Below are positions 1-50,315 of a DNA stretch of 64,000 bases, piece by piece. Every line of letters begins with the position of its first letter. The stretch's first letter is position 1. The translations under genes and the position numbers were made by a program. The notes under the pieces are model-generated. The model saw nothing but the letters and a program-made list of their open reading frames with translations, searched no databases and was not told the DNA's origin. This stretch comes from an uncultured Chloroflexia bacterium (lineage in GTDB: Bacteria > Chloroflexota > Anaerolineae > Anaerolineales > UBA4823): contig CAWGZV010000002.1 in assembly GCA_963827155.1 (NCBI GenBank), positions 2,601,062 to 2,665,061 on the forward strand, written 5' to 3'.

Positions 1-3000
1 CTGTGAAATCCACATATTGAAGCGAAAGCTCTCGAGTCACCGGAGGTTCCCCTAAAACTAAAGCCCGGTAATTCTCTTCCAGTTCCCTGAAGAAAATGTT
101 CATAGACCACAGGTCAGTAATAATGTGGTGGATGACAACCAGAAACAAGAACCGGTGGTCTGATAAATGAATCAGGACTACCCGCAGAAGTGGATCGTCC
201 TCAAGATTAAATGGTTCCCGAATTTGGGACTGCAGGATTAATTGAGTTTGCCGATATTTTTCCGCATCCGGATATATACGAAGGTCAAACTGTTTCATTT
301 CGATATCACGAGATGCAGAAATTACCTGACGCGGTTCACCGTTTATCAATTTGAAGTTAGTGCGTAAAATCCCATGCCGCTGGACAATCCTTGATATGGA
401 CCTTTCGAATGACTGTGGATCCAAGCTGCCGCTCAATTGGAGAGAATAACTGAGATTGTAAGCAGGAGATTTTGGGTCAAGCTGCTGAATAATAAAAAGC
501 CGCTGCTGCGCAAATGACAGGGGGAATGCATCCGAAGTTTTTTGGCTTTCTAATGCATCCTGGAGGCGCGTATTTTCGAGAAATGCAATCAGCTCAGACT
601 TCCTTTGAACGACAGCATCCTTGATGGCTCCTGTCATCACCGCCGGTGGAGCGCTGAATTTGAGCTTGCCTTCTTCAAGCCAGAGGTGGATTCCCGCGGA
701 ATACAAAGTGGTTAAGAAAGCAAAGACTGAACTTTGCTGGTCTATCTGAAGAGAAATCTCCGCGGCAGACTTCGAAAATGCATACTGTTCTTTGACTGTG
801 TCCGAAGATTCTAGCTGCCCAGCTAAAATCTCAAGCAAGATCTCCGCTCTGGCTTCGATTTCCGCAGATCCGTCTGCAATCAAGCGGATCTGATCCACAA
901 AATCTGCCAGATTGGGGGATTCGATCAGGGTTCCAAATGGAATTTCTATTGAAAGCAGGTCATTTAAACGAGCAATCAGCCGGATTGCGAGCAGAGAGTG
1001 ACCCCCAACATCGAAGAAATGATCCCGCATATCCATAGATTTCAAATGCAGGATATCGGCCCAAACATTCGCCACTAATCGCTCCAAAGCGGTCTGAGGC
1101 GAGTGTAAATCCCTGCGAGTTTCCTCATCTTTTAATGATACTAACAGTGCAGAGTAGTCGACCTTTCCATTCGAGGTAATTGGAAGTTTATCGATGACTA
1201 CAAAAACAGAGGGGATCATATAATCCGGCAACTTAGACCGAAGGAAATTTCTTATCTCCCCTTTTGAGAATGGAGCGCCTGGTTCAGGGATTATGAAGGC
1301 AATCAGGCTCTGTTGGAGCTGATCGTTCGATTTGGATTAAATCACCACAGCCAGCTTTATTGTGGGGACTGCTGATAGAATCTGTTCGATCTCGCCTAGC
1401 TCAATCCGAATCCCGCGTATCTTCACTTGTCTATCTGCCCGACCGATAAATATAATCTTCCCATCTGGCAAGTAACTGGCAAGGTCGCCGGTGCGGTAAA
1501 GACGCGCTCCCGGATTTGCTGAGAATGGATTTGGCAAGAAGCTTTCAGCAGTCCATCCGGGCTCGTTCTGATAGCCAACAGCAAGCCCATCTCCACCGAT
1601 ATACAATTCTCCGGTCAATCCCACTGCGACGGGTTGAAGAGCTTCATCCAGGATGTAGACCTGCACATTATCGATTGGATGACCTATGGGAATTACCTGT
1701 GGAAGATCAGTTTTTTCACAGAGAAAATGAGTCGCATCAATACAGGCTTCGGTTGGACCATAGAGATTATGCAACGCAGCATTTGAAATCGTGAGAAAAT
1801 CCTTTGCGAGCTCATGGGACATTACATCCCCACCACAAAGCACATGCCGGAGGGTTTCACACTTCTGTAATTCTTGCAAATCAACCAGCATTTGCAGCAG
1901 TGATGGGGTGATATTCAAGATCGTAACCTGATATTCGATTATTGCCCGATCCAGACCTTTAAAATCTGGCTCAACCCCACCAGGCAGTAAAACGAGTGAG
2001 GCACCATTAAGCAGCAAATCGAATATTTCTCCTAAGGCAACATCAAATCCAAGTGAAGCGGATTGAAGAAAAACATCATCGGATTTAACATCAAGCAGCC
2101 GTTTCATCCAAAATGCATGATTAATCAGGGACCTTCGTGAGATGATAACGCCTTTAGGATCACCGGTTGAGCCTGATGTGTAAATCACATAAGCCGGGTT
2201 TTTAGAAGAAATTGCAAGGTTTGTGTCTTCTGGACTGCAAGCCTCAATCTCGCGAGCATCTTGATCGACGAGAATTCTGCGCTCAACATTTATATTAATT
2301 TGATCATTGTGAACGCGATCCGTAATAAGGGTGGTAATCCCGGCACGGCTGGCGAACGAAAATACACGCGAACTGGGCAACTTTGGATCCAAAAGCAGAA
2401 AAGCCCGACCTGATTTCAAAACAGCTAAAACAGCTACGATGAGCTCGGGGGAGCGCTCCAGGTAAACTCCCACGAGCACTGAAGGATTACTTCTGTTCGT
2501 CCCCAGATAATCCGCAAGTTGATTCGCGCGTTTATTCAAATCGGAATAGTTGAACGTTTCTTCGGTGCTTACAATCGCCACTGCATTTGGAGAGAAATGA
2601 GCCCGATCCTCAAATCCTTTTAATATGTAATTTTGGTCCGAATAAGGTCGATCAGTCCGGTTCCATTCGACAAGAATCTGATCTCTGCTTGAACTTGAAA
2701 GCAAGTTCAGCTGCATGAGCGTTTGGTGCGGATTCGCGACGACTTGTGCTAGCAGTTCAAGATAAGAACTCGCTTATCCATTCAACGGTTGCCTTCTTGT
2801 AGATTTGGGTATTGTAGATAAATTCCCCCCTCAGCGAACCGTTAATCTGGGTGAATTCGAGGCTTAAGTCATAGCGAGCATAGGTTTGTTCATAAGAATA
2901 CGGCTCAACTTTCAATCCAGAAAAAGTTTTTTGGCGCTCAGGAAGGTTTTCAAAATTGAATAGGATTTGAAAAAAAGGGGGGCGGCTTAGATCTCGATGG

Positions 3001-4154
3001 AAAGGCACCACATCAACGATTTTTTCAAAAGGAATATCCTGGTTAGAATATGCTTCGAGCGCTTCATCACGCACTCGATGTAATAGATTGGAAAATGTTG
3101 GTCTTCCTGAAATATCGAAGCGAAGGACCAATGTATTGATAAACAAACCGATCAGGTTCTCAGTTTCAATATAGGTGCGACCAGCAATAGGCGTTCCAAT
3201 CACAAAATCCGTTTGGTTGGTTATCCGGTGGATCAAAGCCACGAACCCGGCTAACAACACCATGAAAAGTGTGGCATTTTCTGAAGCTGCCAGGGTTTTT
3301 AATAAAGGCACCATGTCGGCAGAAACGTCGAAAGTGTGGGCTGCGCCTCGGCTGGCATATATGGATGGGCGTCGAAAATCCGGGGTCAGATCCAACGGTG
3401 AAGGAAGATTTTCCAGCTTATGCTTCCAATAATCCAACTGATTATTTAGAGCACCACTCTCAAGCCGATCACGCTGCCAGGCTGCAAAATCGGCATATTG
3501 AATCCTTAAGTCTGGTAATTGGGCGGGATTTCTGCTCACTAATCCGTTATATACCGCGCTCAAGTCCGCCAGCAATACGCCTTCTGACCAGGCATCGAAG
3601 GTGATGTGGTGAAAGACCAATACCAGAATATGTTGATTTTCTGTAAGATGGATGAGACTGGCTCGCATCAGTGGGCTGCAAGTGAGATCGATCGGGTTGA
3701 TCACCTGCTCGTTAACATATTGATTGGCGGAGTATTCACGCTGATCCGCGTCCAGCCCACGAAAATCCACATCGATAAGGGAAAGCTGTTCTGGTCGCGC
3801 GATTTGCTGTAAAGGTTCCCCAATATCACTTCTCAGCCGGTAACAGAGCGCCTTGTGTCTGCGAACAACCGTGAATAATGCAGCCTCCAAATTCGATCGA
3901 TCAAGAGCTCCGGTCAAGCGAATGACAACAGGTCGATTGAAGAGCCCATGGTGAAGATCGAACTGGCTTAGAACCCATAATCCTTCCTGGGCAAAAGAGA
4001 GAGGAGCAAATTCCTGTCGTTTCCGAACCGGGATGGAGGTTGGTCGCGCACTTAATTCCAGCGCTTCGCTCAAACGCCTATCAAGCGCCGCACGCCTGGC
4101 AGGAGAAAGATCCTTGCTCAATTTTGATGAATGAGGCTTATCTTCCAAGTTCAA
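1..4154 (-). CDS. NRPS, partial (runs off left edge): C-A-T-[TubC_N-like]-C; split by a frameshift (~2775) and an in-frame TAA (1337-1339)
   Basis: C domain HHITFDAWS. Removing one A in TGGATAAGCG (~2775) joins it to the A domain (YTSGSTGDPKG, YGPTE, YRTGD). Hand translation past TAA 1337-1339 stays open in the same frame to base 1: LPDYMIP, NGKVD, PCP FFDVGGHSLL, then LYSAGIHLWLEEGKLKFSAP, then C domain PLSFAQQRL...HHIITDLWS. Confidence 0.9.
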
Positions 4155-4163
4155 TTCGCTTGT

Positions 4164-6030
4164 TTAATATGTCTGAAAATCCTGATTTTCATCCATCTTT
4201 TCTTCCACTTCTTGCAGGATAACTTGTTCCAGGTACAAAGCCTGTTCCGCAATTGTCGGCTCTCTAAAGATCGTTCCCAAAGGTATTTCCAACTGAAATA
4301 CCGATCGGATGCGCGCGAATTAATCGGGTCGCGAGCAGAGAATCTCCGCCACTAGCAAAGAAATTATCAAAGATCCCAATCCATTCGGAATGCAGAACCT
4401 GCTTCCAAAGATTCACCAACGCTTGTTCGGTCTGAGTTCGAGGCGCTTGATATGGAGGGTTAAGATGGGATTTGAGTTTTTCCGCCAGACCGATTCGCTG
4501 GAGCTTGCCTGTGGGTCCCTTTGGGATCGAATCCAGGATTATCACCAATGACGGCGCTTTTTGGGCTGCCAGGCGGTCGAGAGCATAATCCCGCAGCTCT
4601 TTTTCACTTATGAGTGATCCTGTGCGAATTACAACGGCTGTCGCCACATCTTCTCCCAGGGTTGGATGAGGGATTGCAAAAGTCACCGCCTGGGCAACCT
4701 CTGGATGGTCGAGGAAAACCTCATCAACTTCACGAGGGGCGACCTTCTCACCACCTCGGTTTATCATCTCTTTAATCCGGCCGGTGATAAAGAGATAACC
4801 ATCCGCATCCAGATAACCTTCATCTCCTGTTCGAAACCACCCATTGAAAAACGCGGCCTGACTTGCCTCGGGATTGTTGGCATAGCCCGACATCACGTTT
4901 CTCCCTCGGATTACAATCTCGCCGACTTGATTCGGATTAACAAATTTTTCGCCCTCGTCCAAGATTGCTATCTCAGGACCGGCAGGTAAGCCCACCGAAC
5001 CAGGTTTACGCACCCGCGGTGGGAGGGGATTGCTAGCCATCTGATGTGCAGCTTCGGTCATACCATATGCCTCGATAACAGGCGCCTTAAATACTTGTTC
5101 AAGATCAGCCATCATCTTAGGAGGCAGTGACGCCGAAGAAGAACGGATCAACCGCAGTGGATTGGCCAGAATGACCTGAAAATATGATTTGGCTGCTGCC
5201 AGAACGGATTGGTGCATGGTTGGAACAGCCGAATACCACGATGGATGGAATTCTTCAATCCAGGGGAAGAACTGATCCGCCTGGAAACCAGGGGTACATG
5301 CGACACTGGCGCCAGCCATCAGCGAAGATAAGACGACAGCCATTAACCCGTGAATATGGAATAAGGGCATTACATTCAAGCAGCGATCTGCCGGGGTAAG
5401 TGTAAGGGTCTGGACGATATGGCTAGCTGAAGCGATGATATTTGCTTGAGAGAGCGGGACCATCTTGGGTCGGGAAGTGGTTCCAGAAGTATGCAGGACC
5501 AGTGCGATGTCAGCGGGATTTGCGAATCCGGTGTTATCAGCGGACACGGCAGAATCTGATTGCAGCTCAAAATTAATCCTCCCCGGATTTGAATTGGGGA
5601 CCAATTCGACAACGGGAATTTTTCTGCTTTCTGCAACCAGCCGGGCTGGGGAAGCAGTCTCAGCCTGGATAACAAGCGCTTTGGCATCCAGATCTCCCAG
5701 GTAAAAATCAAATTCTGACATGCTGTAAGCAGGATTCAAAGGCGCGCTGGTAGAACACGCGGCAATCGTCAGGAAGGCTGCGGCTAATTCTGGGCCATTC
5801 GGCAGGACGATTGCCACTCTTTCCCCACATCCCACGCCCATTTGGTTCAAGGATCGCTTTACGGCATCCATCTGCTGCGCCAACTCGGAGAAGCTCATCA
5901 TACGCTGCTGCAACCCGAGGAAGGCTATTCCATCCGGCGTCTTGCCAGCTCGCATCTGGATGAGTTTCGCAAGGGTATCGATCGTATTCGGGACATCCTT
6001 GTTTAAGTCCACCTCAGAAAAAACTCCCAT
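4164..6030 (-). CDS. Acyl-CoA/AMP ligase (oxalate-CoA ligase-like) fused to a C-terminal carrier protein; frameshift ~4317
   Basis: LHTSGTTSRPK, PLFHIHGL, WYSAVPTMHQ, RSSSASL, EAYGMTEAAHQM, KGPTGK, then FFASGGDSLL. Removing one C at ~4317 gives RLIARIRSVFQLEIPLGTIFREPTIAEQA and a stop at 4164-4166, 10 nt before the next start. Confidence 0.85.
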
Positions 6031-6060
6031 TATTCCACCTGATTTTCATTTACTCGTAGA

Positions 6061-9000
6061 TTAATCGCGTTTCTGATCAAATTGATCGGGAGGATCCTTG
6101 ACTTGAGAATCAGGAAGGTTTTGAATTTCTAATAGAAATTTTGCGATTTTTTCAATTTGATACGGATCTGGGGAGTGAGCCAAAATCGCTTCAGAAAATT
6201 CAGCTACACTCGGAGATTCGAACAGCAGTCGAGGATTGATCTGGAGATTGAAAAGCTCAGTCAACCTGTAGATCATCCTGATCGCCAAGAGCGAATGTCC
6301 ACCCAGGTCAAAGAAACTGGCGTAAACATCCTGGACAGACCTGCCAAGCAAATCGGACCAGATATGTAAGAGCACTTTTTGGAATACGGTCGGCTGCCCA
6401 TTAAACTCCGAAGGGCGCTGGACTTCGGGTGAGGTAAAACTCGGCAGCAAACGACGATCCACTTTTCCATTCGGGGTCATCGGTAGGGCTGGGATGAAAA
6501 TAAAGACACTCGGGATCATATAATATGGAAGCCGAAGCATCAAAAAATCTTTCAGCTCATGCGTAGAGCCAAATTTTTCTGGGATGAAAACCACATAGGC
6601 AATTAATCGCTGATTATCAGGCAAATCTTCAGCGATTCTCACTGCAGCTTGCCTGACTGCTGAATGGTCTTCAAGCGCTTTCTCAATCTCCCCCAGCTCC
6701 ACCCGAAAACCCCTCAGCTTCACCTGCTGATCGATTCGACCTAAGAAATCCAAATTTCCATCTTGGAGGAAGCGAGCCGAATCGCCAGTACGATACATAC
6801 GCTCGCCAGCACCGTCAAAGGGGTTAGGAATGAATTTTTCGGCAGTCAATTCTGGGCGCTTAAGGTAACCCTGAGCAAGACCATCGCCCGCATTGTAAAG
6901 CTCGCCAGCCGCGCCAATGGGAGCTAAGTTCAACCAGCGGTCTAAAACATAGACGCGTGTGTTTGAAACGGGAGTCCCAATTGGGATGACCCACGGCGAA
7001 TCCTCAATATCATTGACCTGGTAGCAAGTCGTCCAGGTGGTATTTTCGGTAGGGCCGTACCCATTGATCAGTCGTTTTGGTCCACCGGCTCGATTGATTT
7101 TTCGAAGGATATCCGGTGAAGCCACCTCCCCACCAAAGATTACTTCGCGGATCGATTGAAAAGCATGCGGGGCGAAGCTAGCGATGTGATTAAAAAGCGA
7201 AGTGGCAATGCAAAGGACGTCGATTTTCTCAGTTTTGATAAATTTCTCGAACAGGTGTGGGATAAGTAAAATATGTTGGGGAACTATGAATAGAGTTCCT
7301 CCGTTGAGCAGGCTTCCCCAGACCTCAAAAGTAGATAGATCAAAGGAGGTGTTTGTCACCTGCGCTACCCGGTCACCTCTTTTGATTTGAAGATAATTAT
7401 TATTTAGAACTAACCTGTTCACTGACAGATGAGAAATCCCGATCCCCTTCGGCTTTCCTGTTGATCCCGAAGTATACATGACATAAGCAAGGTGCTGAGG
7501 TGTGATCTCAACATCCAGATGAAGAGGGCTCTCTTGTTCAATTTGAGCTCGATCCTGATCAAGGATTATGACCGGCGACTTCACCCCACTCAATAAATCC
7601 CGGTAAGCATCCTGGCTGAGGATGAACTCTGGCACCAGAATCAGTAATCATATAATTCAGACGTTCGAAAGGATGGCCAGTGTCCAGTGGGAGATAAGCT
7701 GCACCTGCCTTCAAAACTGACAAGAATGAAGCGACTGCATCCAAAGAGCGGTCCATACATACGCCCACAGTATCCCCAGGTCGCACCCCCGACCTGGTAA
7801 GGAATCTTGCGAGTTGATTGGTCTGCCGGTCCAATTCTTCATATGAAAAACTCTTAGGAGGTGGGTCTTGATAGGTTTGAGAACCTGGTAAATTATCTGG
7901 ATCACAAACAGCCAAAGCGTTGGGGGTATTTTGGACCTGTTCTGTGAATATCTCGTGGATGCATAAATCACGAGGAAAATTTGAAAAAGTTTTATTCCAG
8001 CGATCCAATAATAAAGCCTGTTCTTGATCGCTAATAAACTTGACTTGAGTAATTTTCTGCTGAGGATCGGCAATCAGCGCCTGGATGAGATTCAAATAAT
8101 GCTCGATCATCCTTTTCATAGCAGCTTCTTCAAACAAATCCGTGTCGTATTCCCATACCAGGGTAATATCTCTGTCTTTGGACACAGCATGTCTGCCGAT
8201 TAGCTGCTCGGCACGTGGGATCACGACAATATTCAAGTCAAATTTCGCGGCTTTATTCTGACGGTACTCAAGACTGCCATGAAGTTCGGGGAACTCGAGC
8301 TCAGGGACAGGAGAATCATGAAAGCTGAATAGAATTTGGAAGTATGGGTTGTAGCCTGGATTTCGATCGGGTTGAAGTATCTGCACCAGCTTCTCAAAAG
8401 GCATGTCCTGATGGGCTGTGGCTTCCAGGATTGTCTCTCGAACCTGGTCGAGAGCCTGAATAAAACTGAGATTCCCTGAAAGATCTGTTCGCAGCAGGAC
8501 TGTATTCACAAACATCCCGATCAGAGGTTCGAATTCGCGCAGCCTTCTATTTGCAAAACCAGATCCAATCAGCAAATCTTCCTGACCGGTGTAGCGCATC
8601 AGCAGCACTTTAAATGCTGTAAGGAATGTGGCAAACAGGGTCACGCCGTTCTTCAAGCTGAAAGATTTAGCTTCTCGATAAAATTCTTCCCCCAGGCTCA
8701 CCTGGATCGAGGCTCCACGAAAATTCTTTTGAGGCGGTCGTGGGTGGTCTGTTTGAATGGGTATGGTCGTGGGGGCTGCTTGCAGCCGTTTTCGCCAATA
8801 TTCCACCTGTCTATCAAGGAACGAACCCCGGAAAACCTCTCTCTGCCAGACCGCATAATCAGAAAACTGAAATCGAAGCTCAGGAAGTGGGGAAGGATTT
8901 CCATCCAGAAAAGCTCGATAAAGGGCTTGAAACTCCCGCATCAGAACCGCAAATGACCATCCATCATGCACAAGGTGGTGCTCGTAATGCACCAACAAAT

Positions 9001-11341
9001 GCTCCTTATCGGAGGATTTGAGAAGCCTCCATTTCACCAAAGGAAGTTGGGTAATATCCAAAACCTCAGAGAAATAATCCGCAAGCAGGCGATCTTCTTG
9101 GATTCTTTGCTGATCGGATGCAAGCTGGCTTAAATCAATAATTGGGATTTCTACATTCCAGGGGGCGTGAATGACCTGGATCGGCGCTCCTTCATGTTCA
9201 TGGAAAGTTGTCCGATAAATCTCATGTCGTCGGATGATCTCATTGAATGCCCAACAAATTGCGTCGTAATTCAGTTTGCCATAAAGCCGAATAGAAATCT
9301 GGTAGTTATACGCAAGGTTCTCTGGCTGCATCTTGTTTAAAAACCATACTTGTTCTTGGGCATAACTCAAAGGCAAATGATGACGATCTAAAGCACGTTT
9401 TAAAGGAGGGAATTTGACCTGATCCTCAGAATGCTGTAAGCGCTCAATTTCTTTCGCCATACTGGCAATTTCAGGCACCGAAAATATATCCGTGATCGGG
9501 AGCTCAACCTGATATCGTTCGTAAACACGGGTGAGAACCTGAGCTAACGCGAGCGAATGCCCACCTAATTCAAAAAAAGAATCATGGATTCCTATCGGAA
9601 AAATACCAAGAACCTGGGACCAAATCTCAGCCAGCACTTTTTCAATTTCGCTGATCGGCAGGATGTATTCTCCTTCGCGATCTTTGGGTGAGGCACTTAA
9701 TTTGATTAGTTCAAGACGGTCCAGCTTTCCACTCGTTGAAACAGGCATGGCGTTCAAGAAATGGAAGTCTGTGGGAATCATGTAATCAGGCAGTTTCTCA
9801 GATAAATAGCGCCGAAGCTCTTGTATAGAAATTTCCTGGTTGGCGTGAAGCACCAGGAATGCCACCAGCCTTGGCTCTCGATGAGCGCCGATTTGATGGC
9901 TGGAATCGTGAAAGACCACCGCGGCCTGCCGTAAGGCGGGGTGCAAATGGAGGCAGTTTTCGATTTCCCCTAATTCCAGCCGAGAGCCGCGGATTTTTAC
10001 CTGAAAATCGACTCTTCCAAGAAATTCGATGTTGCCGTCGGCGAGGAAGCGAGCTAGATCACCGGTGCGGTAAAGCCGGCCGCCCTGGTCGCTGAAAGGA
10101 TCAGGCAGAAAACGCTCTGCCGTGAGGGCAGGACGATGAAAATATCCTCTGCCAAGACTATCCCCGGCAAGATAAATCTCACCAACATCCCCGATAGGGA
10201 CCAACTGCAGTCGATCATCCAGAATATAAGCTCTATTATTCGCAAATGGTTTCCCGATTGGTACGATTTGCAATCGGCGATCCTCTGGGATTCTGTAGGA
10301 AATGGTATCGATACAGGCTTCCGCCGGACCATAAATATTTATTATTTCTACATCAATCAACTCCTTTACCCGGTTGACTAATTCAGGCGGAAGCGCTTCG
10401 CCACCGAAAAACAACCAGCGAAGCTGACCGCAAACCTTGAAACGAGGGTCGTCCAGCATCACCCGCAATAACGAAGGGACCATCAGGAGGGCTGTGATGT
10501 GATGCTCGGCTATCATCTGCAGGATATGTCCCACATCGGATGTGCGTTTGGATGAGATGATTACCAGCTGTGCGCCCCACAACAATCCTGCACAGAGCTC
10601 CCATTCAAACGTATCGAAGCCTAAAGGCGCCTTTAGAAATATGCGATCATTTGAATCAAGGGGAAAAGCCGACTGCATCCAGTGTACATGGTTAGACAGA
10701 CTGCGATGCGTGTTTATCGCGCCTTTCGGCTGTCCAGTTGAGCCTGAAGTGTATATAAGAAACGCTGGATTCTCCGGGTGTGTGACGTTTATTGGATTTT
10801 CGATGGATTCTTTTGAGATGGATCCCCATTCGGAATCGATGGAGATCACTTGAACAGAGTTGAGATTGATCTTTTCAAGCGAATTTTGGATTGCGAGCAA
10901 TATTCGAGTTTTCGAATCCTCCAGCATGAACTCAAGCCGCTTCAATGGGTAGTCTGGATCGAGCGCAAGAAATGCGGCGCCAGCCTTCCAAATTGCGAGG
11001 ACTGCAATCACAAGCTCAAGTGATCTATCGAGGTGGAGTCCGATGATCGATTCTGGACCGACCCCAAGTTTTATTAAGTAATGGGCCAGCTGGTTAGCAC
11101 GCTGGTTGAGATCGCGGTAGGTTAAGGATCTTTGTCGAGGCGAGCCCCAAGTCTCAACGACCGCAATCTGCTCAGGCGTCCAATAAACCTGCTCTTCAAA
11201 GAGCTGGTGGATCAATTTATCATGGGGATATGGAGTATTCGTCGCGTTAAATTCGAACAAAATCCGCCGAATTTGAGAGTCCTCCACAGGGTTTTTGATC
11301 GGACCTATTCCGGGATTATTAAAATCACCTTCGGAAACCAT
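6061..11341 (-). CDS. NRPS A-T-C-A-T (~1760 aa repaired); frameshift ~7631
   Basis: ORF 7559-11341 has A (YTSGSTGQPKG), T (FFELGGHSL), C (EHHLVHDGWS) and the start of a second A. Removing one C in GGTGCCAGAG joins it to ORF 6061-7635 (YTSGSTGKPKG, YGPTE, T FFDLGGHSLL). RBS GAGGAG precedes ATG 11341. Confidence 0.92.
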
Positions 11342-11417
11342 ACCGCTCCTCTTTTAGCGAATTAACGACTAAGTATACTATGCTGTCAGCGGAAAATTAC
11401 CGGCGGCGCATTCCTGA

Positions 11418-11453: not shown

Positions 11454-11833
11454 CCAGGTCGGTCGGGCGATCGCCGAATGGCTCTGCGAGCCGTTTGGAG
11501 GAAAGTCCGCACTCCAAAGAGCACGATGCCGGGCAACACCCGGGATGGGGCAACCTGTCGGATCGGACCACAGAGATATACCGCCGGGAATCCGGTAAGG
11601 GTGAAAAGGTGGTGTAAGAGACCACCGGCGCAGTTGGCAACAATTGCGGCCAGGCAACCCCCATCGGGAGCAAGGCCAAGCAGGGACAAATGGGTGAATA
11701 ACCCAGGGAAGCTGCTCGTTTCCGTGAGTTCCGGGTAGGCCGCACGAGCTGGATGGAGACATCCAGCCTAGATAGATGATCGCCGGGGCAGGCAAGTCCT
11801 GCTGCACAGAATGCGGCTTATAGATCGACCTGG
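11454..11833 (+). ncRNA. rnpB: RNase P RNA, bacterial type A
   Basis: Conserved GAGGAAAGTCC (11498) and ACAGAA.GCGGCTTAT near the 3' end; P1 pairing CCAGGTCGGTC / GATCGACCTGG; GGGTGAAAAGGTGGTGTAAGAGACCACC segment. Confidence 0.97.
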
Positions 11834-11835
11834 TA

Positions 11836-13218
11836 TTATTGTTTTGGGATAGAAATTGTAAAAAGGGCTCCCTTGCCTGGCTCGCTCTGCAAGCGAATAG
11901 CCCCACTATGTGCTTCGACGATCGATTTTGCTATTGCCAACCCCAGGCCAGTCTCGTTATTATACGTACGGGCGCGGTCGGCACGATAGAAGCGGTCGAA
12001 CACAAAGGGCTGCTCCTCTACAGGAATTCCAATTCCATCATCCTGGACTTGGAGCTCCACATCGTGGGGTGAGCCAGAGGCACCAAGGACGATATTTCCA
12101 TTTGCAGGAGTGTAGCGAAGCGCATTCGTCATCAAGTTGCCCAGCACCTGGTTCATCCGTTCCGGATCAACGAAAACCTCTGGCAAATTGGGCTCGATTC
12201 GCAGCTCCAGATTGATTCCTTTTTGCTCACACAACGGGCGATAAGCAGATGCCGATCGTTCGAGAATCACCCCGGGAGATATCATCTGGGGGAAAAGCAC
12301 CAACTCCCCCGCGTCTGCAAGTGACAATGTCCGTAGATCCTCGATTAATCGATTTAACAGACCAGCCTCTTTATGCATGATTTCAAATATTTCTGGGGTC
12401 CCTTCCAACTTGGCATCGCTAAGCGCTTCGGTGTAACCCAGGATTACAGTTAATGGAGAGCGCAGATCATGGGCGATATCGGCAGTCATTTGACGGCGTG
12501 CCTGGGTTGCTTTGGCCAGGTCTGTGCTCATCTTGTTGAATGAATCAGCAAGACCCCCGAGCTCGTCCTTGGATCGGATTAGCACTTGAGTTCCCAATTC
12601 ACCGGCTGCTATCGCCTGGGTCGCGTGAGTCAGATCGCGGATTGGCCGAGTCAGGGTACGCGCCAGTGCCACACCTAAAACCAGGGCGATAATCGATGCC
12701 AGGACTGCACTGATTAGAAGCACCTGGTTAATCGCCGATAGAAAATTCCTCTCAGGTCCACCTATGTCTCCGGGCGACAGGCGCGGACTGATGGTCAACC
12801 AACCTACCAGCTTTCCATCCACCTCCAACGGGAGCCCTTGAGAAATTTCGTCCTTTGTCGCAAGCCCACCTGGCGGAAGTTCTGAACCTGTAAAGACAAT
12901 GATTCGGTTGGCGTCTACCAGCATCAGCGGCAGCGGACGACTTTCCGGTGGTCGCGGATTACTCGACATCTTCTGTGTATCATCTTGAATACGCCGCAGC
13001 CGCTCCATCTGGTCCATGACCTGATCAACCCCATTCCAGGATCCATTCGAGATGTAGAATTCGGTCAAAGCCGTGACTAAATCGCGCTGGTACTGGTTGG
13101 ATAGAAAGCGGTTAAATTCAGTGTTGGTTCGCTGCTGAATAAATAGAGCAGAGAGCACAGCCCCAGTCAGGCTGACAATCAAGAACGCGAGAACGAGCTT
13201 AACGGTTAACGACCGCAT
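11836..13218 (-). CDS. HAMP-domain sensor histidine kinase (BaeS-like)
   Basis: Two TM segments, HAMP, H-box ADIAHDLRSPL, N-box NLMTNALRY, DDGIGI, GLGLAIAK. Confidence 0.93.
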   Translation of the reverse strand: MRSLTVKLVLAFLIVSLTGAVLSALFIQQRTNTEFNRFLSNQYQRDLVTALTEFYISNGSWNGVDQVMDQMERLRRIQDDTQKMSSNPRPPESRPLPLMLVDANRIIVFTGSELPPGGLATKDEISQGLPLEVDGKLVGWLTISPRLSPGDIGGPERNFLSAINQVLLISAVLASIIALVLGVALARTLTRPIRDLTHATQAIAAGELGTQVLIRSKDELGGLADSFNKMSTDLAKATQARRQMTADIAHDLRSPLTVILGYTEALSDAKLEGTPEIFEIMHKEAGLLNRLIEDLRTLSLADAGELVLFPQMISPGVILERSASAYRPLCEQKGINLELRIEPNLPEVFVDPERMNQVLGNLMTNALRYTPANGNIVLGASGSPHDVELQVQDDGIGIPVEEQPFVFDRFYRADRARTYNNETGLGLAIAKSIVEAHSGAIRLQSEPGKGALFTISIPKQ

Positions 13219-35187: not shown

Positions 35188-37850
35188 TCAGCAGGTTTCA
35201 AACAACAAGTCTGATAGGAGCTCTGCAACTCGACCAACCTGAGGCTCCCATAACAAGGCATCATGATGACCATCGACCTCAATAACCTCAATACGTTCTC
35301 CTGCGACGGCTCCCCACCCTAATAACGGATCGGGTACCAAGCCAAACGGCTGACGTCTGGCTCGGAATAATACCAATCGGCCTTTAAATCTAGGAGGAGT
35401 CAAGGCATACCGGTTGGCGATCTTATTGGCCTTACGGACTCGCTTAAGATCATCAGGAAGCGGGTTGCGGATTAGTTGGTAGCTGTTGGAGATCCGCACA
35501 CTCAGCCTGCGGCCCATACTCGGGATCCGAAGGGATAAATATTCGCCTGCACCACGCAAGTTTAACGATTTGATATTAACTAGATGCCGCTGCAATTTTT
35601 GAATCTTGCGGATCAGATATATTTTGCCTCGCTTCATTCCTGGCAAACGTTTTGGGTAGTTCGGGCCATAAGTATCAAACATCACCACAAGCGCAGTATT
35701 TTCTCCCATATCTGCAAGCTGTTGGGCGATCTCATATGCCACTTTTCCCCCAAACGACGAGCCGCATAAGGTATAAGGTCCATGAGGTTGAATTTTCAAG
35801 ATAGACGCGAGATGAAAACCCGCGATCTCAACGACATTCGTCAGCGGCTCTTCTTGACCGCCAATCCCTTTTGATTGCAGGGCATAAAGGGGCTGATTAC
35901 TCCCCAAATGTTTCGATAGATCGTGATAATTTAACACATTCCCACCCACACCTGGCAAGCAGAAAAGGGGCGGGAATTTCCCATGCGGTTGAACAGCGAC
36001 CAGCGGCGACCAATCTGCCACCCATTGTTCATCCTGGAGAAGCTCAGACTGTTGAGCTACGGTCGCAGCATTGAAAATTATGGAGAGCGGCAGTTTTTTC
36101 CCAAGCATCCGCTCTATCTCAACAAATATGCGCATTGCCTGGAGTGAATCGCCTCCGATCGCGAAAAAATCGTCATAGATCCCGATCGGATGGCAGCCAA
36201 TCACCCTTTCCCAGATTTTTATCAGCCTAGCTTCAAGATCATTGGTCGGCTTCGCATATTTTTCATCACGAGCGATCGCTGCCTGGGAGGGCGCTGGCAG
36301 CGCGGTTCGATCAATTTTTCCATTCGGGTTTCGAGGGAGCTCATTAAGGAATACGTATTGTGTCGGCAGCATATGTGCTGGCAGAAGGAGGGATAACTCT
36401 CTACGCAGATCGCTTATGCTCCGGGAGTTTCCCGGATTCATACAGAGGTAAGCAGTCAATCGCATGTTGCTGCCTGAAATCAGTTTGCCCGGCAATTACA
36501 GCCGCTTCGCGAACACCGTTAATATGAAGCAGCGATGATTTAACCAGCGGAAGCTCAACTCGATACCCGCTGATCTTTACCATTTCATCTTTTCTACCAC
36601 GATACTCCAAAAGGCCATCCTGGCGCAGCACGCCCATATCGCCGGTATAAATCAGACGGTCCAAACCACCTTGTGGGTCAGGCTTGAATTTCTCGTTCTC
36701 AATTTTGGCTTCACCCCAATATCCACTCGCCACGCTGCGCCCTTTGACCACAATTTCGCCAATTTCACCAGGCGGTAATCCTTGGCCGTTTTCATCGACG
36801 ATCAACACCTGTTTGTCGATTGTCGGATATCCGATTGGCAGATAATCATCATCCAATATTGTGTCTTGGGTTATGAAATAGGCTGATGATGAACCAGCTT
36901 CACTTGAAGCAAGATGATGCTTTATCAGACAATCTGGCGAGATGTGAGATCGAAACATCTTTAAAGCACCAATATTTACCCTTTGTCCAGCCAAGGTAAC
37001 CAACCGCAAGTCACGTAAAAAATCGTCAGGCTGGAGAATCTCGACAAATTGATGAAACAACGAGACCGGTGGGGAAAATATGTTGATGCGGTTCTCGTTA
37101 AGCCAATCATAAAGGCGCCCGATTCCCCATTCTTTAACCGGGTAAAAGTAAATGGCTGCGCCCGAAAGCAAAGCGCTGAAAATCGTGGAGAGGGCTGCCG
37201 AGAAAGCGAATGATGACAGGTGTGCCTGACGGCTGCCTGGTCCAAATCCATATGGGCGGTACTGCAAGGCGCCGTGTTTTTTAATAATCCCCTTCGGATT
37301 CCCCGTGGAGCCTGAAGTGTAATAGAGCGCTGCAATCGTGTCTGCAGTGATGGGTATGTCAGGGTCCGAGTCCGAAACGCCTGGATCGAGTTCATCAATA
37401 TTAATCACAACAGATTTATCTGGGCAGATACTATTCGCTAGCTCGAGGCTCGATGTATCGGTGAGAATTTTTCGCAGACCCGCATCTTTAATAATCAGAT
37501 TCGAGGTTGGCGGGTGGGTAATCCCGGTCCAGCGGGACAGCAATTTTGCCGGCTTTGACAACTGCATAGATTGCAAAGATTGAATTCGGGGTGTGGCCAA
37601 ATATCAGGCCTATGGTCTCCTGCTCCGAACCAGGAACCAGAAGGTACCGGTTCGCAATCCGATTAGTGAGTCGGTCAAATTCCTGGAAAGTGAACTCCTG
37701 GTCACCGTGATTTATTGCTATTTGGTCTGGATTTTGCTTGACACGAACACACAATCGATCTGGGATCGATTGGGCGGGATCGAGCTGCTTGAAATTCTCG
37801 ACTTCACTGACCAGATTCCCGCGGTAAATCGGATGAATCTCAACTTTCAT
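35188..37850 (-). CDS. Monomodular NRPS-like A-T-TE enzyme (~885 aa repaired); frameshifts ~37502 and ~36478
   Basis: Three ORF pieces join by single-base removals. YTSGSTGNPKG, YTGDMG, GRKDEMVKISGYRVE, PNGKIDR, T FFAIGGDSL, TE PLFCLPG...GSSFGG...GHH. Confidence 0.85.
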
Positions 37851-37903
37851 GTCATGGCGTCCAACGACAAATTGGATTAAGAGGATTTTTCACTTGATAG
37901 AGG

Positions 37904-40949: not shown

Positions 40950-41363
40950 ATGAATGTCGATCCCGTGCCAAGAACCAAGACAACAATTTTATATGTCGAA
41001 GACAATACCGACAACCGCGTCCTGGTCAAGCGCATTTTAATGGCTGAGGGATTCGCGTTATTAGAAGCAGCGAATGCGCTCGAGGCGGTTGAGATGCTTG
41101 CAGACCGATCTGCGGATTTGATCCTGATGGACATCAACATGCCGGACATCGATGGCTATACGCTCACGACAATCTTCAAGTCTATCCCTGGGATAAGCCG
41201 AACCCCGATCATCGCAATGACCGCGAATGTGATGAAAGGCGATCGCGAGCGAAGCTTTGCCTCGGGCTGCGATGGTTATATCCAGAAGCCGATTGATGTT
41301 GATGCGCTCCCTCGTCAGATTGCCCGATTCCTCTACATGAGGGATTGTGAGAACAGGAGTTGA
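40950..41363 (+). CDS. Single-domain response regulator (DivK/CheY-like)
   Basis: YVEDN, LMDINMP, AMTA, YIQKP. Confidence 0.93.
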   Translation: MNVDPVPRTKTTILYVEDNTDNRVLVKRILMAEGFALLEAANALEAVEMLADRSADLILMDINMPDIDGYTLTTIFKSIPGISRTPIIAMTANVMKGDRERSFASGCDGYIQKPIDVDALPRQIARFLYMRDCENRS

Positions 41364-41807
41364 ACTTGGAGCGAGAATTCATAAGCGTACGTAATCCGGA
41401 TCCTATTTCCGATGGGATTACCGTTCTGGTCGTGGAAGACAATGTCGCTAATTTTATCTTAATTGCACGCATGTTGGGTTTGTTGGGAATTCATTGCGAA
41501 TGGAAAACTTCTGGATATGAAGTCGTTGAATATGCCGATAATCTCCCACGGCTCGATTTGATCCTCCTGGACATTCGGCTCCCTTATGAGGACGGATTCA
41601 GCGCATTGAAAAAGATCCGCGGGGCGGAAAGACTTAAACATACCGCTTGTAGTCGCCGTAACAGCGGAAGCGAGCAATGAACATATGAATAGAGCTCGTC
41701 TGGCACAGTTCGATGGATTCATAGGCAAACCATTGAACCCTGACCGCTTTCCCGACCAGATCCGTCGGATCCTGGCAGGTGATCCAGTTTGGGAAATTGA
41801 TCAGTAG
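41360..41807 (+). CDS. Second single-domain response regulator; frameshift ~41642
   Basis: VVEDN, LLDIRLP. The shifted frame supplies PLVVAVTA...FDGFIGKP...WEIDQ and a stop at 41805-41807. Confidence 0.85.
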
Positions 41808-41955
41808 TGTGTTTGTCAGGTTGCAATTCTGCAAGGAAACCTTCCATTAAAACGATTGGGAGGGATAATCTTTATCCGATATCCTTTTCTTTGAATGTCG
41901 AATCTGGCCTCCATTGTGATAAGAGGATGCTTTCATACACCAGGTTTATGGGAGA

Positions 41956-43697
41956 GTGCTGATGTCCTCACCTGAAAGCCCACCCACCCGGGTAACTCAT
42001 AATCACCTGACCCGCAGGATGACAATCACCATCCTTCCGGTTGGGCTGATCCCTGTCATTGTTATGGGATTGTTAATCTCCACTATCACGAATATGGCGG
42101 GGACCGTTGGAAATGCCGAGTTTTCCAGGCTCACAATTGGTTCAGTTGTCGCTTTGACTCTGATCGCATGGCTGGTATCTTGGCTGATCGCGAAAAGATT
42201 AGCAGGTCCCTTAGTCAGCTTGAGCCAGGCGATGGAAAGTTTTACTTTGGGGAACTGGGATCAACGTGCTTCAGTCTCTCAGAGAGATGACACTGCCAGG
42301 CTGGCAGAACTTTTCAACCAAATCGCGGATGAATATCGCTCAACTTACCAATCTCTGACGCTACGCGAAGGAGTGGGGCACGTTGGACCCGATCAGGGAA
42401 TCAGTCAGATCGCCTGGATAGCTGTTCAAGCAGAAAGCCAAACCGAGATGCTGGAGGGAGCGCTCGAGACGCTGGTTAGAGGCTTCGGCTTAACTTACGC
42501 GGCGATCTATCTAATCGAGCAAGATCATTTGCGCGAAAAACGCTCCGCCAATATGCTGCATTCTTACCAATTGCCAGGATTTGATGCTACAGGTACGGAG
42601 CAAATTAAGCGTCCAGATACAGTCGACCTTGAAACTGTCCCCACCCTCGAATGGCAGGTCAGTAAGGCGATCGCGACTCGTCAGGCACAAGTTGCAGAAA
42701 GCCATCAAGAGGTTGGATTATTCGAGGCGGCTGTGCCTTTATTGCGTGCCGGGCAAGTTATCGGAGCTTTGGAGCTTTTGGCTTTCAGCCGCAGCGGCGA
42801 TGCGCGACTCGGTCCTTTCGGGTGCGCGGTCTGGTGGAGATACAGAAGGCAGCAGGCATTATTGCACTTGGTCTGATCGATTCCCAACCCCTTGATTCAG
42901 ATTCCACGAAGGGGGAAAAATCTGAGGGAAAATCTGGATTGCTAAAGGAATCAATCTCGCTAAAAGAAACTGCTCAGGCACAAACAGATCGTCAACTTAG
43001 CCAGCTGCGAACATTCTGGAACATCAGTCAGGCTATTTCGCTTGAAACGGACCTCAATCCACTTTTTGAGATGATCCATCACCAGTTGGAGAATGCAATG
43101 GGAAATCTCAACTCATTTACCATCGCACTATATGATCTTGGAGAAAATGACCAGCTCGATGGGACTATCCGGATCCCATACTCTGTTGAAGATGGCCGAA
43201 AACTCAGGTATGAACCTTTTCCATTAGGAGAAGGATTGACATCCATTGTTATTCGAACTCGAAAATCACTCCTCATATCCAAAAATGTCGAAGAACAACT
43301 GCGGCAGCTGGATGTCAAGATGGCTGATATGCCCTCAAAGTCATGGTTGGGGGCACCGATGATTTACGCCGGAGATATGATTGGAGTAATCGTCGTACAA
43401 GATGTCACCAGGGATGATCGGTTCAACGAGGAAGACGAACGGATGCTGACAGCTCTTGCTGCCCAGGCTGCGGTGGTTGTTCGCAACGCCAGCCTCCTTG
43501 AGGCTGCTCGCCGGCAAGCAAGGCAAGAAAAATTAACCAATGAAATTACCGCTCGGGTTCGGCGTGCATCCGATATCCAGACGATCCTTATGACGACCGC
43601 GCGTGAGCTCGGAGCGGCACTAGGAGTTCGGAGTGCACATATCCATTTGAATCCCGAATTTTCAGAGCCACCGACGGGAATGGGGGCAGAGCCGTGA
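41956..43697 (+). CDS. Membrane HAMP-GAF-GAF sensor with no output domain; frameshift ~42820
   Basis: Two TMs, HAMP (PLVSL...DDTARLAELFNQ), GAF (WLGAPMIYAGDMIGVI), half-GAF tail. Confidence 0.8.
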
Positions 43698-50256: not shown

Positions 50257-50315
50257 TCTGCTCCGGTTAAGGCAGATATTGGTCAACGCTGCAAATCGGC
50301 AAGATTGAACTGGAA

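What the first reader, a model, noticed from the sequence alone, without database searches (positions are those of the whole stretch)
1..11341. Multi-gene NRPS cluster in a probable Anaerolineae genome
Seen: three co-oriented genes (A-T-C-A-T; ligase-T; C-A-T-dock-C) with 30-nt and 9-nt gaps, divergent from rnpB and continuing off the window; no TE or reductase so far. Hand-extracted A-domain codes are DTWLFGIIDK, DLFCIGGTWK and DVGNLGLIDK; none is an exact match to a code I recall (the second resembles Val-type codes). Inference: an uncharacterised peptide pathway in a lineage rarely credited with such clusters.
Basis: partly seen in the sequence, partly recalled or inferred. Interest (0 to 1): 0.7.

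Follow-up and report, generated by a model that had tools for sequence, protein, structure and literature searches.

The report
Eight-module peptide synthetase island, Anaerolineales
This is a real, uncharacterised 28-kb gene cluster for a non-ribosomal peptide in an uncultured Anaerolineales (Chloroflexota) genome, probably started by an oxalate-type acid loader; its broken reading frames match a genome-wide assembly error rate and do not point to a dead pathway.

Summary
Pfam confirms A-T-C-A-T, ligase-T and C-A-T-dock-C on the minus strand. The gaps are 30 and 9 nt, rnpB is divergent, and all three hand-read A-domain codes are reproduced.

The whole genome shows the window holds only the first 11.3 kb. 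The cluster has five genes (28,058 bp, eight amino-acid modules plus one acid loader) and ends in a thioesterase beside uvrB. The host is Anaerolineales (UvrB 83-89% identical to Anaerolineales MAGs). In the same-genus genome and two other relatives rnpB abuts uvrB, so the cluster is a variable island. An intact, shorter ortholog (53-66% identity, five modules) lies next to uvrB in a metagenome contig.

The six frameshifts and one stop are not specific to the NRPS. Conserved genes across this genome, including a Glu/Gln-tRNA synthetase and aroA, break about once per 6-7 kb.

The ligase belongs to the oxalate-CoA ligase family and keeps the oxalate-contacting residues. The condensation domain after it falls in a dedicated clade. 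The thioesterase has a cysteine nucleophile. Nothing named is more than 43% identical.

"Rarely credited" is overstated, because NRPS clusters in Anaerolineae MAGs have been reported. Moderate interest: a new member of a known kind, with an unusual starter.

The parts
6061..11341 (-). Gene 1: A1-T1-C2-A2-T2 (about 1760 aa if read through one frame change). Approximate domains: A1 9725-11200, T1 9449-9637, C2 8006-9385, A2 6463-7945, T2 6184-6375.
   Evidence: Pfam. ORFs. Ortholog L083 g1 is 53% identical across both pieces.
7623..7640 (-). Frame change 1, inside A2 just after the DSGA motif. It is a one-base frame change and does not lie in a long homopolymer.
   Evidence: Overlapping ORFs 7559-11353 and 6061-7647. 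The L083 g1 alignment switches frame between 7640 and 7623.
4164..6030 (-). Gene 2: acid-AMP ligase of the oxalate-CoA ligase (AAE3/Pcs60) type (about 4504-5955) fused to a carrier domain (about 4185-4428, GGDSL at 4336-4350).
   Evidence: Pfam. PDB 5IE0 at 428 bits against 195 bits for the first hit outside the oxalate-ligase family. L083 g2 is 66% identical.
4316..4320 (-). Frame change 2, inside the carrier domain of gene 2 (RLI | ARIRSVFQL), in a CG-repeat context.
   Evidence: Because of it the gene caller's product (P0241) carries no PP-binding hit, unlike all 600-aa relatives.
1..4154 (-). Gene 3, window part: C3 (2769-4016), A3 (1163-2614), T3 (890-1078), internal TubC_N-type docking domain (575-721), and the start of C4 (1-532). 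The gene continues left of the window as C4-A4-T4.
   Evidence: Pfam. Only one frame is open across the T3-dock junction.
2770..2781 (-). Frame change 3, at the C3/A3 linker (WISEF | YLELL).
   Evidence: The L083 g3 alignment switches frame between 2781 and 2773.
1337..1339 (-). In-frame TAA inside A3, between the A8 and A9 regions.
   Evidence: The L083 g3 alignment runs straight through it.
11455..11836 (+). rnpB (bacterial RNase P RNA, class A). It is divergent from gene 1 and marks the right border of the island.
   Evidence: Rfam RF00010, 277 bits against a gathering score of 100, full length. In relatives it abuts uvrB.

Best explanation
The window holds the first 11.3 kb of a five-gene, 28,058-bp modular NRPS operon on the minus strand. 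It spans window 11341 to about -16716, which is contig C2 2,584,345-2,612,402. It sits as a variable island between rnpB and uvrB in a long-read-assembled Anaerolineales genome.

Architecture:
- Gene 1: A1-T1-C2-A2-T2.
- Gene 2: acid ligase-T.
- Gene 3: C3-A3-T3-dock-C4-A4-T4.
- Gene 4: C5-A5-T5-C6-A6-T6.
- Gene 5: C7-A7-T7-C8-A8-T8-TE.

Shown here: the domain order, the borders, the host and the island status. Also shown: an intact shorter ortholog exists, all catalytic motifs are intact, and frame breaks occur at about the same density throughout the genome.

Inferred mechanism:
1. The ligase, a member of the oxalate-CoA ligase family, adenylates oxalate or a similarly small acid and loads it on its own carrier domain.
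2. C3, which belongs to a clade of condensation domains that always follow such loaders, joins the acid to amino acid 3.
3. The chain is extended co-linearly through genes 3, 4 and 5. The predicted residues are X3, Thr-like, Phe, X6, Leu and Pro.
4. A thioesterase with a cysteine nucleophile releases the product.

Gene 1 makes a Gln-like/aliphatic dipeptidyl thioester. How it enters the product is not resolved.

The six frame changes and one stop codon are most likely consensus errors of the assembly. The pathway is therefore probably intact in the organism.
For: - Domains: Pfam. All nine carrier serines (GG[HDN]SL) and all seven HHxxxD condensation motifs are present.
- Extent: the window maps to C2:2601062-2665061 and the line ends in PF00975 next to uvrB.
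- Host: the 80 best UvrB matches are almost all Anaerolineae or Anaerolineales, the best at 83-89% identity.
- Island: rnpB abuts uvrB in L011, L005 and the same-genus genome G353. Cluster GC is 47.6% against 52.3% for the genome, and GC3 is 47.6% against 58.1 +/- 7.6%.
- Ortholog: L083 (JGI 3300044798, UvrB 88% identical) carries A-T-C-A-T | ligase-T | C-A-T | C-A-T-C-A-T-TE | uvrB. All its genes are called intact and are 47-66% identical to genes 1, 2, the first part of gene 3, and gene 5.
- Breaks are genome-wide. I found 28 frame changes in 166 kb of sequence orthologous to intact ORFs of relatives, and 16 in 111 kb against the same-genus genome. That is one per 5.9-6.9 kb, against one per 4.7 kb in the cluster (Poisson P 0.13-0.34). 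The broken genes include a Glu/Gln-tRNA synthetase (twice), EPSP synthase and PEPCK.
- Ligase: the top four PDB hits are oxalate-CoA ligases (428-276 bits) and the next hit scores 195 bits. Ser289, His319 and Lys500 of AtAAE3 are kept, and the other pocket residues are identical or conservatively changed.
- C3: post-ligase C domains from nine genomes form one clade with support 96/94.
- TE: GYCFG aligns with the catalytic serine of 7CRN and is conserved as GFCFG in L083.
- Accessory genes: two PPTase-family genes and one MbtH gene lie elsewhere in the genome.
Against: - The error interpretation therefore rests on rates, not on the sites themselves.
- The break sites do not lie in long homopolymers, so they do not carry the classic nanopore signature.
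- The cluster's break density is somewhat above the genome estimate.
- The oxalate assignment is by homology only. The NCBIfam best hit (FadD7 family) is below its cut-off, at 404 against 650 bits. No oxalate-producing enzyme lies in the island.
- The operon has one more chain-starting protein than receiving C domains, which the co-linear model does not explain.
- Three A-domain codes (A1, A3, A6) match nothing I can name.
- Expression is unknown.
Confidence: 0.7

Rival explanations
1. The cluster is a genuine pseudogene array. The frameshifts and the nonsense codon are real mutations, and the pathway is dead or dying in this lineage. It has already been lost from the same site in the same-genus genome.
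For: There are seven disruptions in 28 kb, in four of the five genes. The break sites are not in long homopolymers. The island is absent from close relatives. Its GC content is atypical.
Against: The same kind of break occurs once per 6-7 kb in conserved genes over the whole genome, including essential ones. The excess in the cluster is not significant. Every catalytic motif of the 8 A, 9 T, 7 C and 1 TE domains is intact, which is not expected after loss of selection. The same-genus long-read genome shows the same break density when measured against this one.
Confidence: 0.12
2. The gene 2 ligase loads something other than oxalate, such as a fatty, aryl or other small carboxylic acid. The product would then be an ordinary N-acyl lipopeptide of the PvdL or surfactin start type.
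For: NCBIfam's top models are the FadD7 family and long-chain fatty-acid CoA ligases, though all are below their cut-offs. Acyl ligase-T starters that load fatty acids are well known (PvdL; my own knowledge). Three of the eight pocket residues differ from AtAAE3 (V215I, C288S, A313G).
Against: The ligase scores 428 bits against oxalate-CoA ligase and 195 bits or less against FadD13, malonyl-CoA, coumarate, benzoate or DHB ligases. Ser289 and His319 are both kept in this ligase and in L083. PMC8905533 reports these two residues as conserved only in oxalyl-CoA synthetases.
Confidence: 0.3
3. Gene 1 (A-T-C-A-T) is not part of the same assembly line. It makes its own dipeptide (for example released as a diketopiperazine or by a trans hydrolase), while genes 2-5 make an acyl-hexapeptide.
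For: Most related Anaerolineales clusters start directly with ligase-T and lack a gene 1. In G263 rnpB abuts the ligase gene. C3 belongs to the post-ligase clade. There is one donor protein too many for the receiving C domains.
Against: Gene 1 is kept in the same position, 30-40 nt ahead of the ligase gene, in L083, and NRPS modules precede the ligase in L105 too. Its C-terminal tail is of the same docking type as the tails of genes 2 and 3. It has no release domain.
Confidence: 0.25

Closest known systems
Uncharacterised ortholog cluster on JGI metagenome contig 3300044798 Ga0480573_000288 (locus L083)
   Same: It has the same position and orientation directly upstream of uvrB (UvrB 88% identical). 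It has the same gene order: A-T-C-A-T, ligase-T, C-A-T......C-A-T-C-A-T-TE. The last two A codes are the same or nearly so (DAWFLGNVVK; DVQFIAQVVK against DVQFIAHVVK). The TE has the same cysteine nucleophile. Genes are 47-66% identical.
   Different: It has five amino-acid modules, not eight. It lacks the dock-C4-A4-T4 segment and all of gene 4. All its genes are called intact. It is itself unstudied.
PvdL-type initiation (acyl ligase-T followed by C-A-T) of pyoverdine synthetases, NCBIfam PRK05691
   Same: An ANL-family ligase with its own carrier domain starts the chain, and a C domain couples the acid to the first amino acid. C3 and C7 align best to the first C of this model, positions 661-1087.
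   Different: Here the ligase-T is a separate protein of the oxalate-CoA ligase family, not a fatty-acid ligase. All scores are far below the model's cut-off (300 against 4090 bits). An extra A-T-C-A-T protein is encoded ahead of it.
Oxalate-CoA ligases AtAAE3 (5IE0-5IE3), LsOCS (6QJZ), yeast Pcs60 (8AFF)
   Same: The match runs the full length at 428 bits. His214, Ser289, Met314, His319 and Lys500 are conserved.
   Different: Those enzymes make a CoA thioester in oxalate catabolism or beta-ODAP synthesis. This one is fused to a carrier domain inside an NRPS operon, so the acceptor thiol is presumably its own phosphopantetheine arm.
Cysteine thioesterase domains of ObiF1 (obafluorin) and SulM (sulfazecin)
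   Same: A cysteine replaces the serine nucleophile of a type I NRPS TE.
   Different: Those TEs close a four-membered lactone or lactam ring from a beta-hydroxy or beta-amino C-terminal residue. Here the predicted last residue is Pro, sequence similarity is not special (the best PDB hit is 7CRN, a serine TE), and related clusters alternate between Cys and Ser.
TubC-type N-terminal docking domain (PF18563)
   Same: Clear Pfam match at 57.2 bits against a cut-off of 26, placed directly in front of a C domain.
   Different: It is not at a protein N-terminus. It is fused in frame behind T3 and its docking-like tail, and no other frame is open there. This is probably the scar of a fusion that brought in the extra modules.

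Membership tests
Modular type I non-ribosomal peptide synthetase cluster | Repeated C-A-T modules with adenylation core motifs | tested here: met
   PF00501/PF13193, PF00550 and PF00668 all score far above their cut-offs in every piece. Eight YTSGSTGxPK ... NGK[VIL]D adenylation domains were found.
Modular type I non-ribosomal peptide synthetase cluster | Carrier serine and condensation HHxxxD active sites present | tested here: met
   Nine GG[HDN]SL motifs and seven HHxxxD motifs.
Modular type I non-ribosomal peptide synthetase cluster | Chain release domain | tested here: met
   PF00975 at 89.3 bits at the end of gene 5, outside the window. Its nucleophile is Cys.
Modular type I non-ribosomal peptide synthetase cluster | Uninterrupted reading frames | tested here: not met
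   The assembly has six frame changes and one TAA. These are judged to be assembly errors from the genome-wide rate. Reads were not available.
Oxalate-CoA ligase (AAE3/Pcs60/OCS) subfamily of ANL enzymes | Closest to oxalate-CoA ligases rather than to other ANL subfamilies | tested here: met
   5IE0 scores 428 bits, 6QJZ 400 and 8AFF 365. The next family (FadD13) scores 195 bits.
Oxalate-CoA ligase (AAE3/Pcs60/OCS) subfamily of ANL enzymes | Oxalate-contacting Ser289, His319 and Lys500 (AtAAE3 numbering; PMC8905533) | tested here: met
   All three are conserved in this ligase and in L083. The other pocket residues are V215I, H216H, C288S, A313G and M314M.
Oxalate-CoA ligase (AAE3/Pcs60/OCS) subfamily of ANL enzymes | Oxalate-dependent adenylation and thioester formation | not testable with these tools
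   This needs an enzyme assay.
FadD7 family fatty acid-CoA ligase (NCBIfam NF004511) | Score at or above the curated cut-off | tested here: not met
   404 bits against a cut-off of 650.
Beta-lactone/beta-lactam-forming Cys thioesterases (ObiF1, SulM) | Cysteine nucleophile | tested here: met
   GYCFG aligns with GWSLG of 7CRN.
Beta-lactone/beta-lactam-forming Cys thioesterases (ObiF1, SulM) | C-terminal residue with a beta nucleophile, and the aspartate moved to the loop after strand beta-7 | tested here: inconclusive
   The last A domain code, DVQFIAHVVK, is Pro-type, which argues against a beta nucleophile. The aspartate position was not examined because no model was built.
TubC_N docking domain (PF18563) | Profile match above the cut-off | tested here: met
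   57.2 bits against 26, covering profile positions 3-51 of 52.
TubC_N docking domain (PF18563) | Located at the N-terminus of a subunit | tested here: not met
   It is internal, fused in frame after T3, and only that frame is open.
Bacterial RNase P RNA class A (RF00010) | Full-length covariance-model match above the gathering score | tested here: met
   277 bits against 100, model positions 1-367.

The most novel reading that the evidence does not exclude
The operon, like its intact ortholog, may merge two chain starts: an oxalyl unit on the ligase's carrier domain and a dipeptide on gene 1. Only one starter-type condensation domain (C3) is available to receive them. Either C3 acylates amino acid 3 twice, as MxcG does with lysine, or the two starts are joined by some other undescribed step. 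Release by a cysteine thioesterase would then give a branched N-oxalyl peptide, a build logic not described for NRPSs.
Probability: 0.15. Interest if true: 0.7.

Novelty: new member of a known kind. Interest (0 to 1): 0.4.

Why it matters
If the pathway is intact, it is a sequence-novel octapeptide line from an uncultured Anaerolineales bacterium. No protein among 5.8 billion is more than 55% identical, and gene 4 has nothing above 43%. Its starter appears to use oxalate, a building block I could not find described for any NRPS in the papers searched. The same ligase-T loader is very common in metagenomes from many phyla, so working out one example would annotate thousands of genes.

The locus also records assembly-line evolution at a fixed chromosomal site between rnpB and uvrB. 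The states seen are an empty site, a five-module line and an eight-module line with a fused docking-domain scar.

There is also a practical lesson. This genome breaks a conserved gene about every 6-7 kb, so any 'truncated', 'split' or 'pseudogene' call made on it needs read support.

Tried and rejected
- Metagenome-contig scan with the ligase, to find an independent near-identical assembly: no relative found.
- Asking for rnpB upstream of gene 1 in L083's record: the record is not held by the genome search.
- Hidden gene boundary at the T3-dock junction: rejected. The other two frames are full of stops.
- Long-homopolymer explanation of the frame changes: not supported. The contexts are runs of three bases or fewer, or a CG repeat.
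- NRPS-specific decay: rejected on rates.
- Contig chimera or mis-binning: rejected. The cluster lies inside a 3.68-Mb contig with Anaerolineales genes on both sides, and an independent assembly (L083) also joins the NRPS to uvrB.
- Recent import of the extra modules from a recognisable donor: no hit above 43%.
- Docking-tail/head matching to order the subunits: the tails of genes 1, 2 and 3 and the heads of genes 3 and 5 are all of one type, so this gives no information.
- Literature search for oxalyl starter units in NRPSs: one irrelevant paper.
- Citing all A-domain codes from papers: only Leu (DAWFLGNVVK), Thr (DFWNIGMVHK/DFWSVGMVHK) and the Pro DVQ pattern could be cited (PMC12283262). 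The Phe, Gln and Orn comparisons are from memory.
- C-domain subtype calling (LCL, DCL, dual E/C, starter) was not possible without reference models.


Full report
**What is in the window.**
Stop-to-stop ORFs on the minus strand of 1-11353 fall into six pieces. Pfam reads them as follows:
- AMP-binding/PP-binding/Condensation/AMP-binding(start)
- AMP-binding(rest)/PP-binding
- AMP-binding/AMP-binding_C
- Condensation
- AMP-binding
- AMP-binding_C/PP-binding/TubC_N/Condensation

Reading the junctions in three frames gives three genes:
- Gene 1 runs from ATG 11341 to the stop at 6061-6063.
- Gene 2 runs from ATG 6030 to TAA 4164-4166.
- Gene 3 starts at TTG 4154 and runs off the window.

Rfam finds a full-length class A RNase P RNA at 11455-11836 on the plus strand, divergent from gene 1.

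I extracted Stachelhaus positions from a MAFFT alignment of all A domains. The same columns give DAWFLGNVVK for A7, which PMC12283262 names as the most common Leu code. They give DFWSIGMVHK for A4, one residue from the Thr codes in that paper, and a DVQ-type Pro code for A8. The column choice is therefore sound.

**The whole cluster.**
The window is C2:2601062-2665061 of a 4.94-Mb, three-contig genome. To the left, the NRPS continues for another 16.7 kb. The complete line spans 28,058 bp from rnpB to uvrB:
- Gene 1: A1-T1-C2-A2-T2.
- Gene 2: ligase-T.
- Gene 3: C3-A3-T3-dock-C4-A4-T4.
- Gene 4: C5-A5-T5-C6-A6-T6. Its ATG overlaps the TGA of gene 3.
- Gene 5: C7-A7-T7-C8-A8-T8-TE.

No tailoring, transport or regulatory gene lies inside it. 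All nine carrier serines and all seven HHxxxD motifs are present. The remaining codes are A5 DAWTIAAVCK (Phe-type, from memory), A6 DARSLSQMTK (no match I know) and A8 DVQFIAHVVK (Pro-type).

Elsewhere the genome has an AcpS-size and an Sfp-size PPTase gene, and one MbtH gene. It also has only a few small NRPS-like loci. One of these is an A-T-TE gene inside this window at 35191-37889.

**Host and locus.**
The UvrB protein encoded next to the TE finds 80 loci in the species-representative genome collection. Nearly all are labelled Anaerolinea, Anaerolineales, Anaerolineaceae or 'uncultured Chloroflexia', and the best are 83-89% identical.

In L011 (89%), L005 (83%) and the same-genus genome G353 (89%), rnpB lies 50-150 nt from the uvrB start and is divergent. 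That is the empty site.

The cluster also differs in composition from the rest of the genome. GC is 47.6% against 52.3%, and GC3 is 47.6% against 58.1 +/- 7.6%. The NRPS is therefore a variable island at a fixed site. Whether it was gained here or lost from relatives is not decided.

**Relatives of the cluster.**
The best database hit to gene 5 is 55% identical over its full length, and everything else is at or below 43%. That hit lies on a 65-kb JGI metagenome contig (L083) whose UvrB is 88% identical to ours. L083 carries A-T-C-A-T | ligase-T | C-A-T | C-A-T-C-A-T-TE | uvrB, with all genes called intact.

Genes 1, 2, the first module of gene 3, and gene 5 are its orthologs at 47-66% identity. 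The segment dock-C4-A4-T4 plus all of gene 4 has no counterpart there. Gene 4 has no database relative above 43%.

The internal TubC_N domain marks the left edge of this extra segment. Only one frame is open across it, so it is a true in-frame fusion and probably the scar of the recombination that added three modules.

In a sample of 400 Anaerolineales genomes, 13 carry an ortholog of the ligase-T (51-64% identical) but the same-genus genome does not. Where the contigs allow, the layout is ligase-T-C-A-T-TE or a small variation of it. In G263 the ligase gene abuts rnpB with no gene 1. A further relative (L004, UvrB 86% by tblastn) has an A-T-TE 35-51% identical to ours, again just upstream of uvrB.

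**The frame breaks.**
The assembly has frame changes at about 7623-7640 (A2), 4316-4320 (carrier domain of gene 2), 2770-2781 (C3/A3 linker), -4370 (A5), -10445 (C7) and -11130 (A7). It also has a TAA at 1337-1339 (A3). Five of the seven sites are bridged by collinear alignments to the intact L083 proteins.

Instead I measured how often the same thing happens elsewhere.
- Intact ORFs of at least 250 aa from 80 relatives' loci were searched against this genome. They gave 28 frame changes in 166 kb of orthologous sequence, or one per 5.9 kb.
- The affected genes include a class I Glu/Gln-tRNA synthetase (twice), EPSP synthase, PEP carboxykinase, pyrimidine-nucleoside phosphorylase and a 2-oxoacid dehydrogenase E1.
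- ORFs from 200 kb of the same-genus genome gave 16 frame changes in 111 kb, or one per 6.9 kb, and about one in-frame stop per 10 kb.
- The reverse comparison shows that genome to be just as broken relative to this one.

Six frame changes in 28 kb is not a significant excess (Poisson P 0.13-0.34). Multi-megabase contigs, broken essential genes and intact catalytic motifs together make consensus errors of a long-read assembly the best explanation. Real decay of the cluster remains possible at roughly one in eight. The break sites are not in long homopolymers, which is the main point against the error reading.

**The starter.**
The gene 2 ligase scores 428, 400 and 365 bits against the solved oxalate-CoA ligases of Arabidopsis, grass pea and yeast. 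It scores 195 bits or less against fatty-acid, malonate, coumarate, benzoate or aryl-acid ligases and NRPS A domains.

PMC8905533 lists the AtAAE3 oxalate pocket as Val215-His216, Cys288-Ser289, Ala313-Met314, His319 and Lys500. [quoted passage not shown] In our protein these positions are I, H, S, S, G, M, H and K, and the motifs around the three contacts are the same in L083.

The ligase-T fusion is a very large family. All but two of the 8000 candidates scored reached E 1e-80 or better. The named ones come from Anaerolineales, Gemmatimonadota, Thermodesulfobacteriota, Bacteroidota and Caldithrix. Some are labelled 'oxalate-CoA ligase' by JGI, and many have a TE fused.

A maximum-likelihood tree of 26 C domains puts every C domain that directly follows a ligase-T, from nine genomes including ours and L083, in one clade with support 96/94. 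The elongation C domains fall outside it. This ties C3 functionally to the ligase-T, so I take ligase-T to C3 as the conserved chain start.

I found no paper describing an oxalyl starter for an NRPS. Earlier notes of this scan reach the same idea on other genomes and on this gene. I treated them as leads, and the tests above are my own.

**What stays unexplained.**
- *One donor too many.* Both our operon and L083 have one more T-ending donor protein (gene 1 and gene 2) than head C domains to receive them. The C-terminal tails of genes 1, 2 and 3 and the N-terminal heads of genes 3 and 5 (LSPAKR-type) are all of one kind, so docking does not order them. The possibilities are a double acylation of amino acid 3 by C3, a separate dipeptide product, or an unknown joining step. 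I put none above 25%.
- *The cysteine thioesterase.* The TE nucleophile is cysteine (GYCFG), aligned to the catalytic serine of 7CRN. It is conserved in L083, L004, L097, L099 and L100 but is serine in three other related clusters. Known Cys TEs (ObiF1, SulM) make four-membered rings (PMC11298585). With a predicted C-terminal Pro, that chemistry is unlikely here.
- *C5.* It is a long-branch outlier with HHLISDGRS, and its subtype was not determined.

**Verdict.**
This is a real, sequence-novel, probably intact NRPS island in an Anaerolineales genome, and a new member of a known kind. The claim that the lineage is rarely credited with such clusters is out of date, since PMC11748557 reports 20 NRPS/PKS clusters in Anaerolineales MAGs from one habitat. 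The more interesting parts are the oxalate-type loader, the two chain starts, the Cys TE and the visible module gain at a fixed site. Interest 0.4.

Noticed in passing
whole genome (e.g. C1 about 290,987 and 291,594; C2 about 619,524, 648,909 and 2,574,725): Conserved genes are frame-broken about once per 6-7 kb, including a Glu/Gln-tRNA synthetase, aroA, PEPCK and an E1 dehydrogenase. The same-genus genome G353 (a 3.65-Mb contig) shows the same rate. Any 'split', 'truncated' or 'output-less' protein reported from this genome needs read support, for example the GAF receptor notes at 40950-56075.
   Followed up: partly
window 35191-37889 (-): A second, separate NRPS-like gene (A-T-TE with a serine TE, GSSFG). 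It is split over three overlapping ORFs (37491-37889, 36404-37603, 35191-36495), so it apparently carries two frame changes as well.
   Followed up: partly
L083 19537-21841: Downstream of uvrB the ortholog contig carries a Y1 (IS200-type) transposase, an HTH gene and a PhD/PIN toxin-antitoxin pair. These are absent from our locus and hint that the rnpB-uvrB neighbourhood is a recombination hot spot.
   Followed up: no
L100 (G237:C1 about 2,006,500-2,009,100) and many hits: The oxalate-type ligase-T is often fused directly to a TE (845-900 aa, ligase-T-TE) with no C or A domain. This stand-alone enzyme has no known function.
   Followed up: no
L097 9448-12524 and L101 10580-13249: Related small clusters have odd inserts after the loader: ligase-T-C-T-C-A-T-TE and ligase-T-C-C-A-T-TE. 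The second C of L101 groups with our outlier C5 on long branches.
   Followed up: no
window about -16792 to -16716 (C2 about 2,584,270-2,584,345): Only about 70 nt separate the NRPS stop from the uvrB ATG, with a TATAAT-like box just ahead of uvrB. uvrB may be read through from the 28-kb operon as well as from its own promoter.
   Followed up: no
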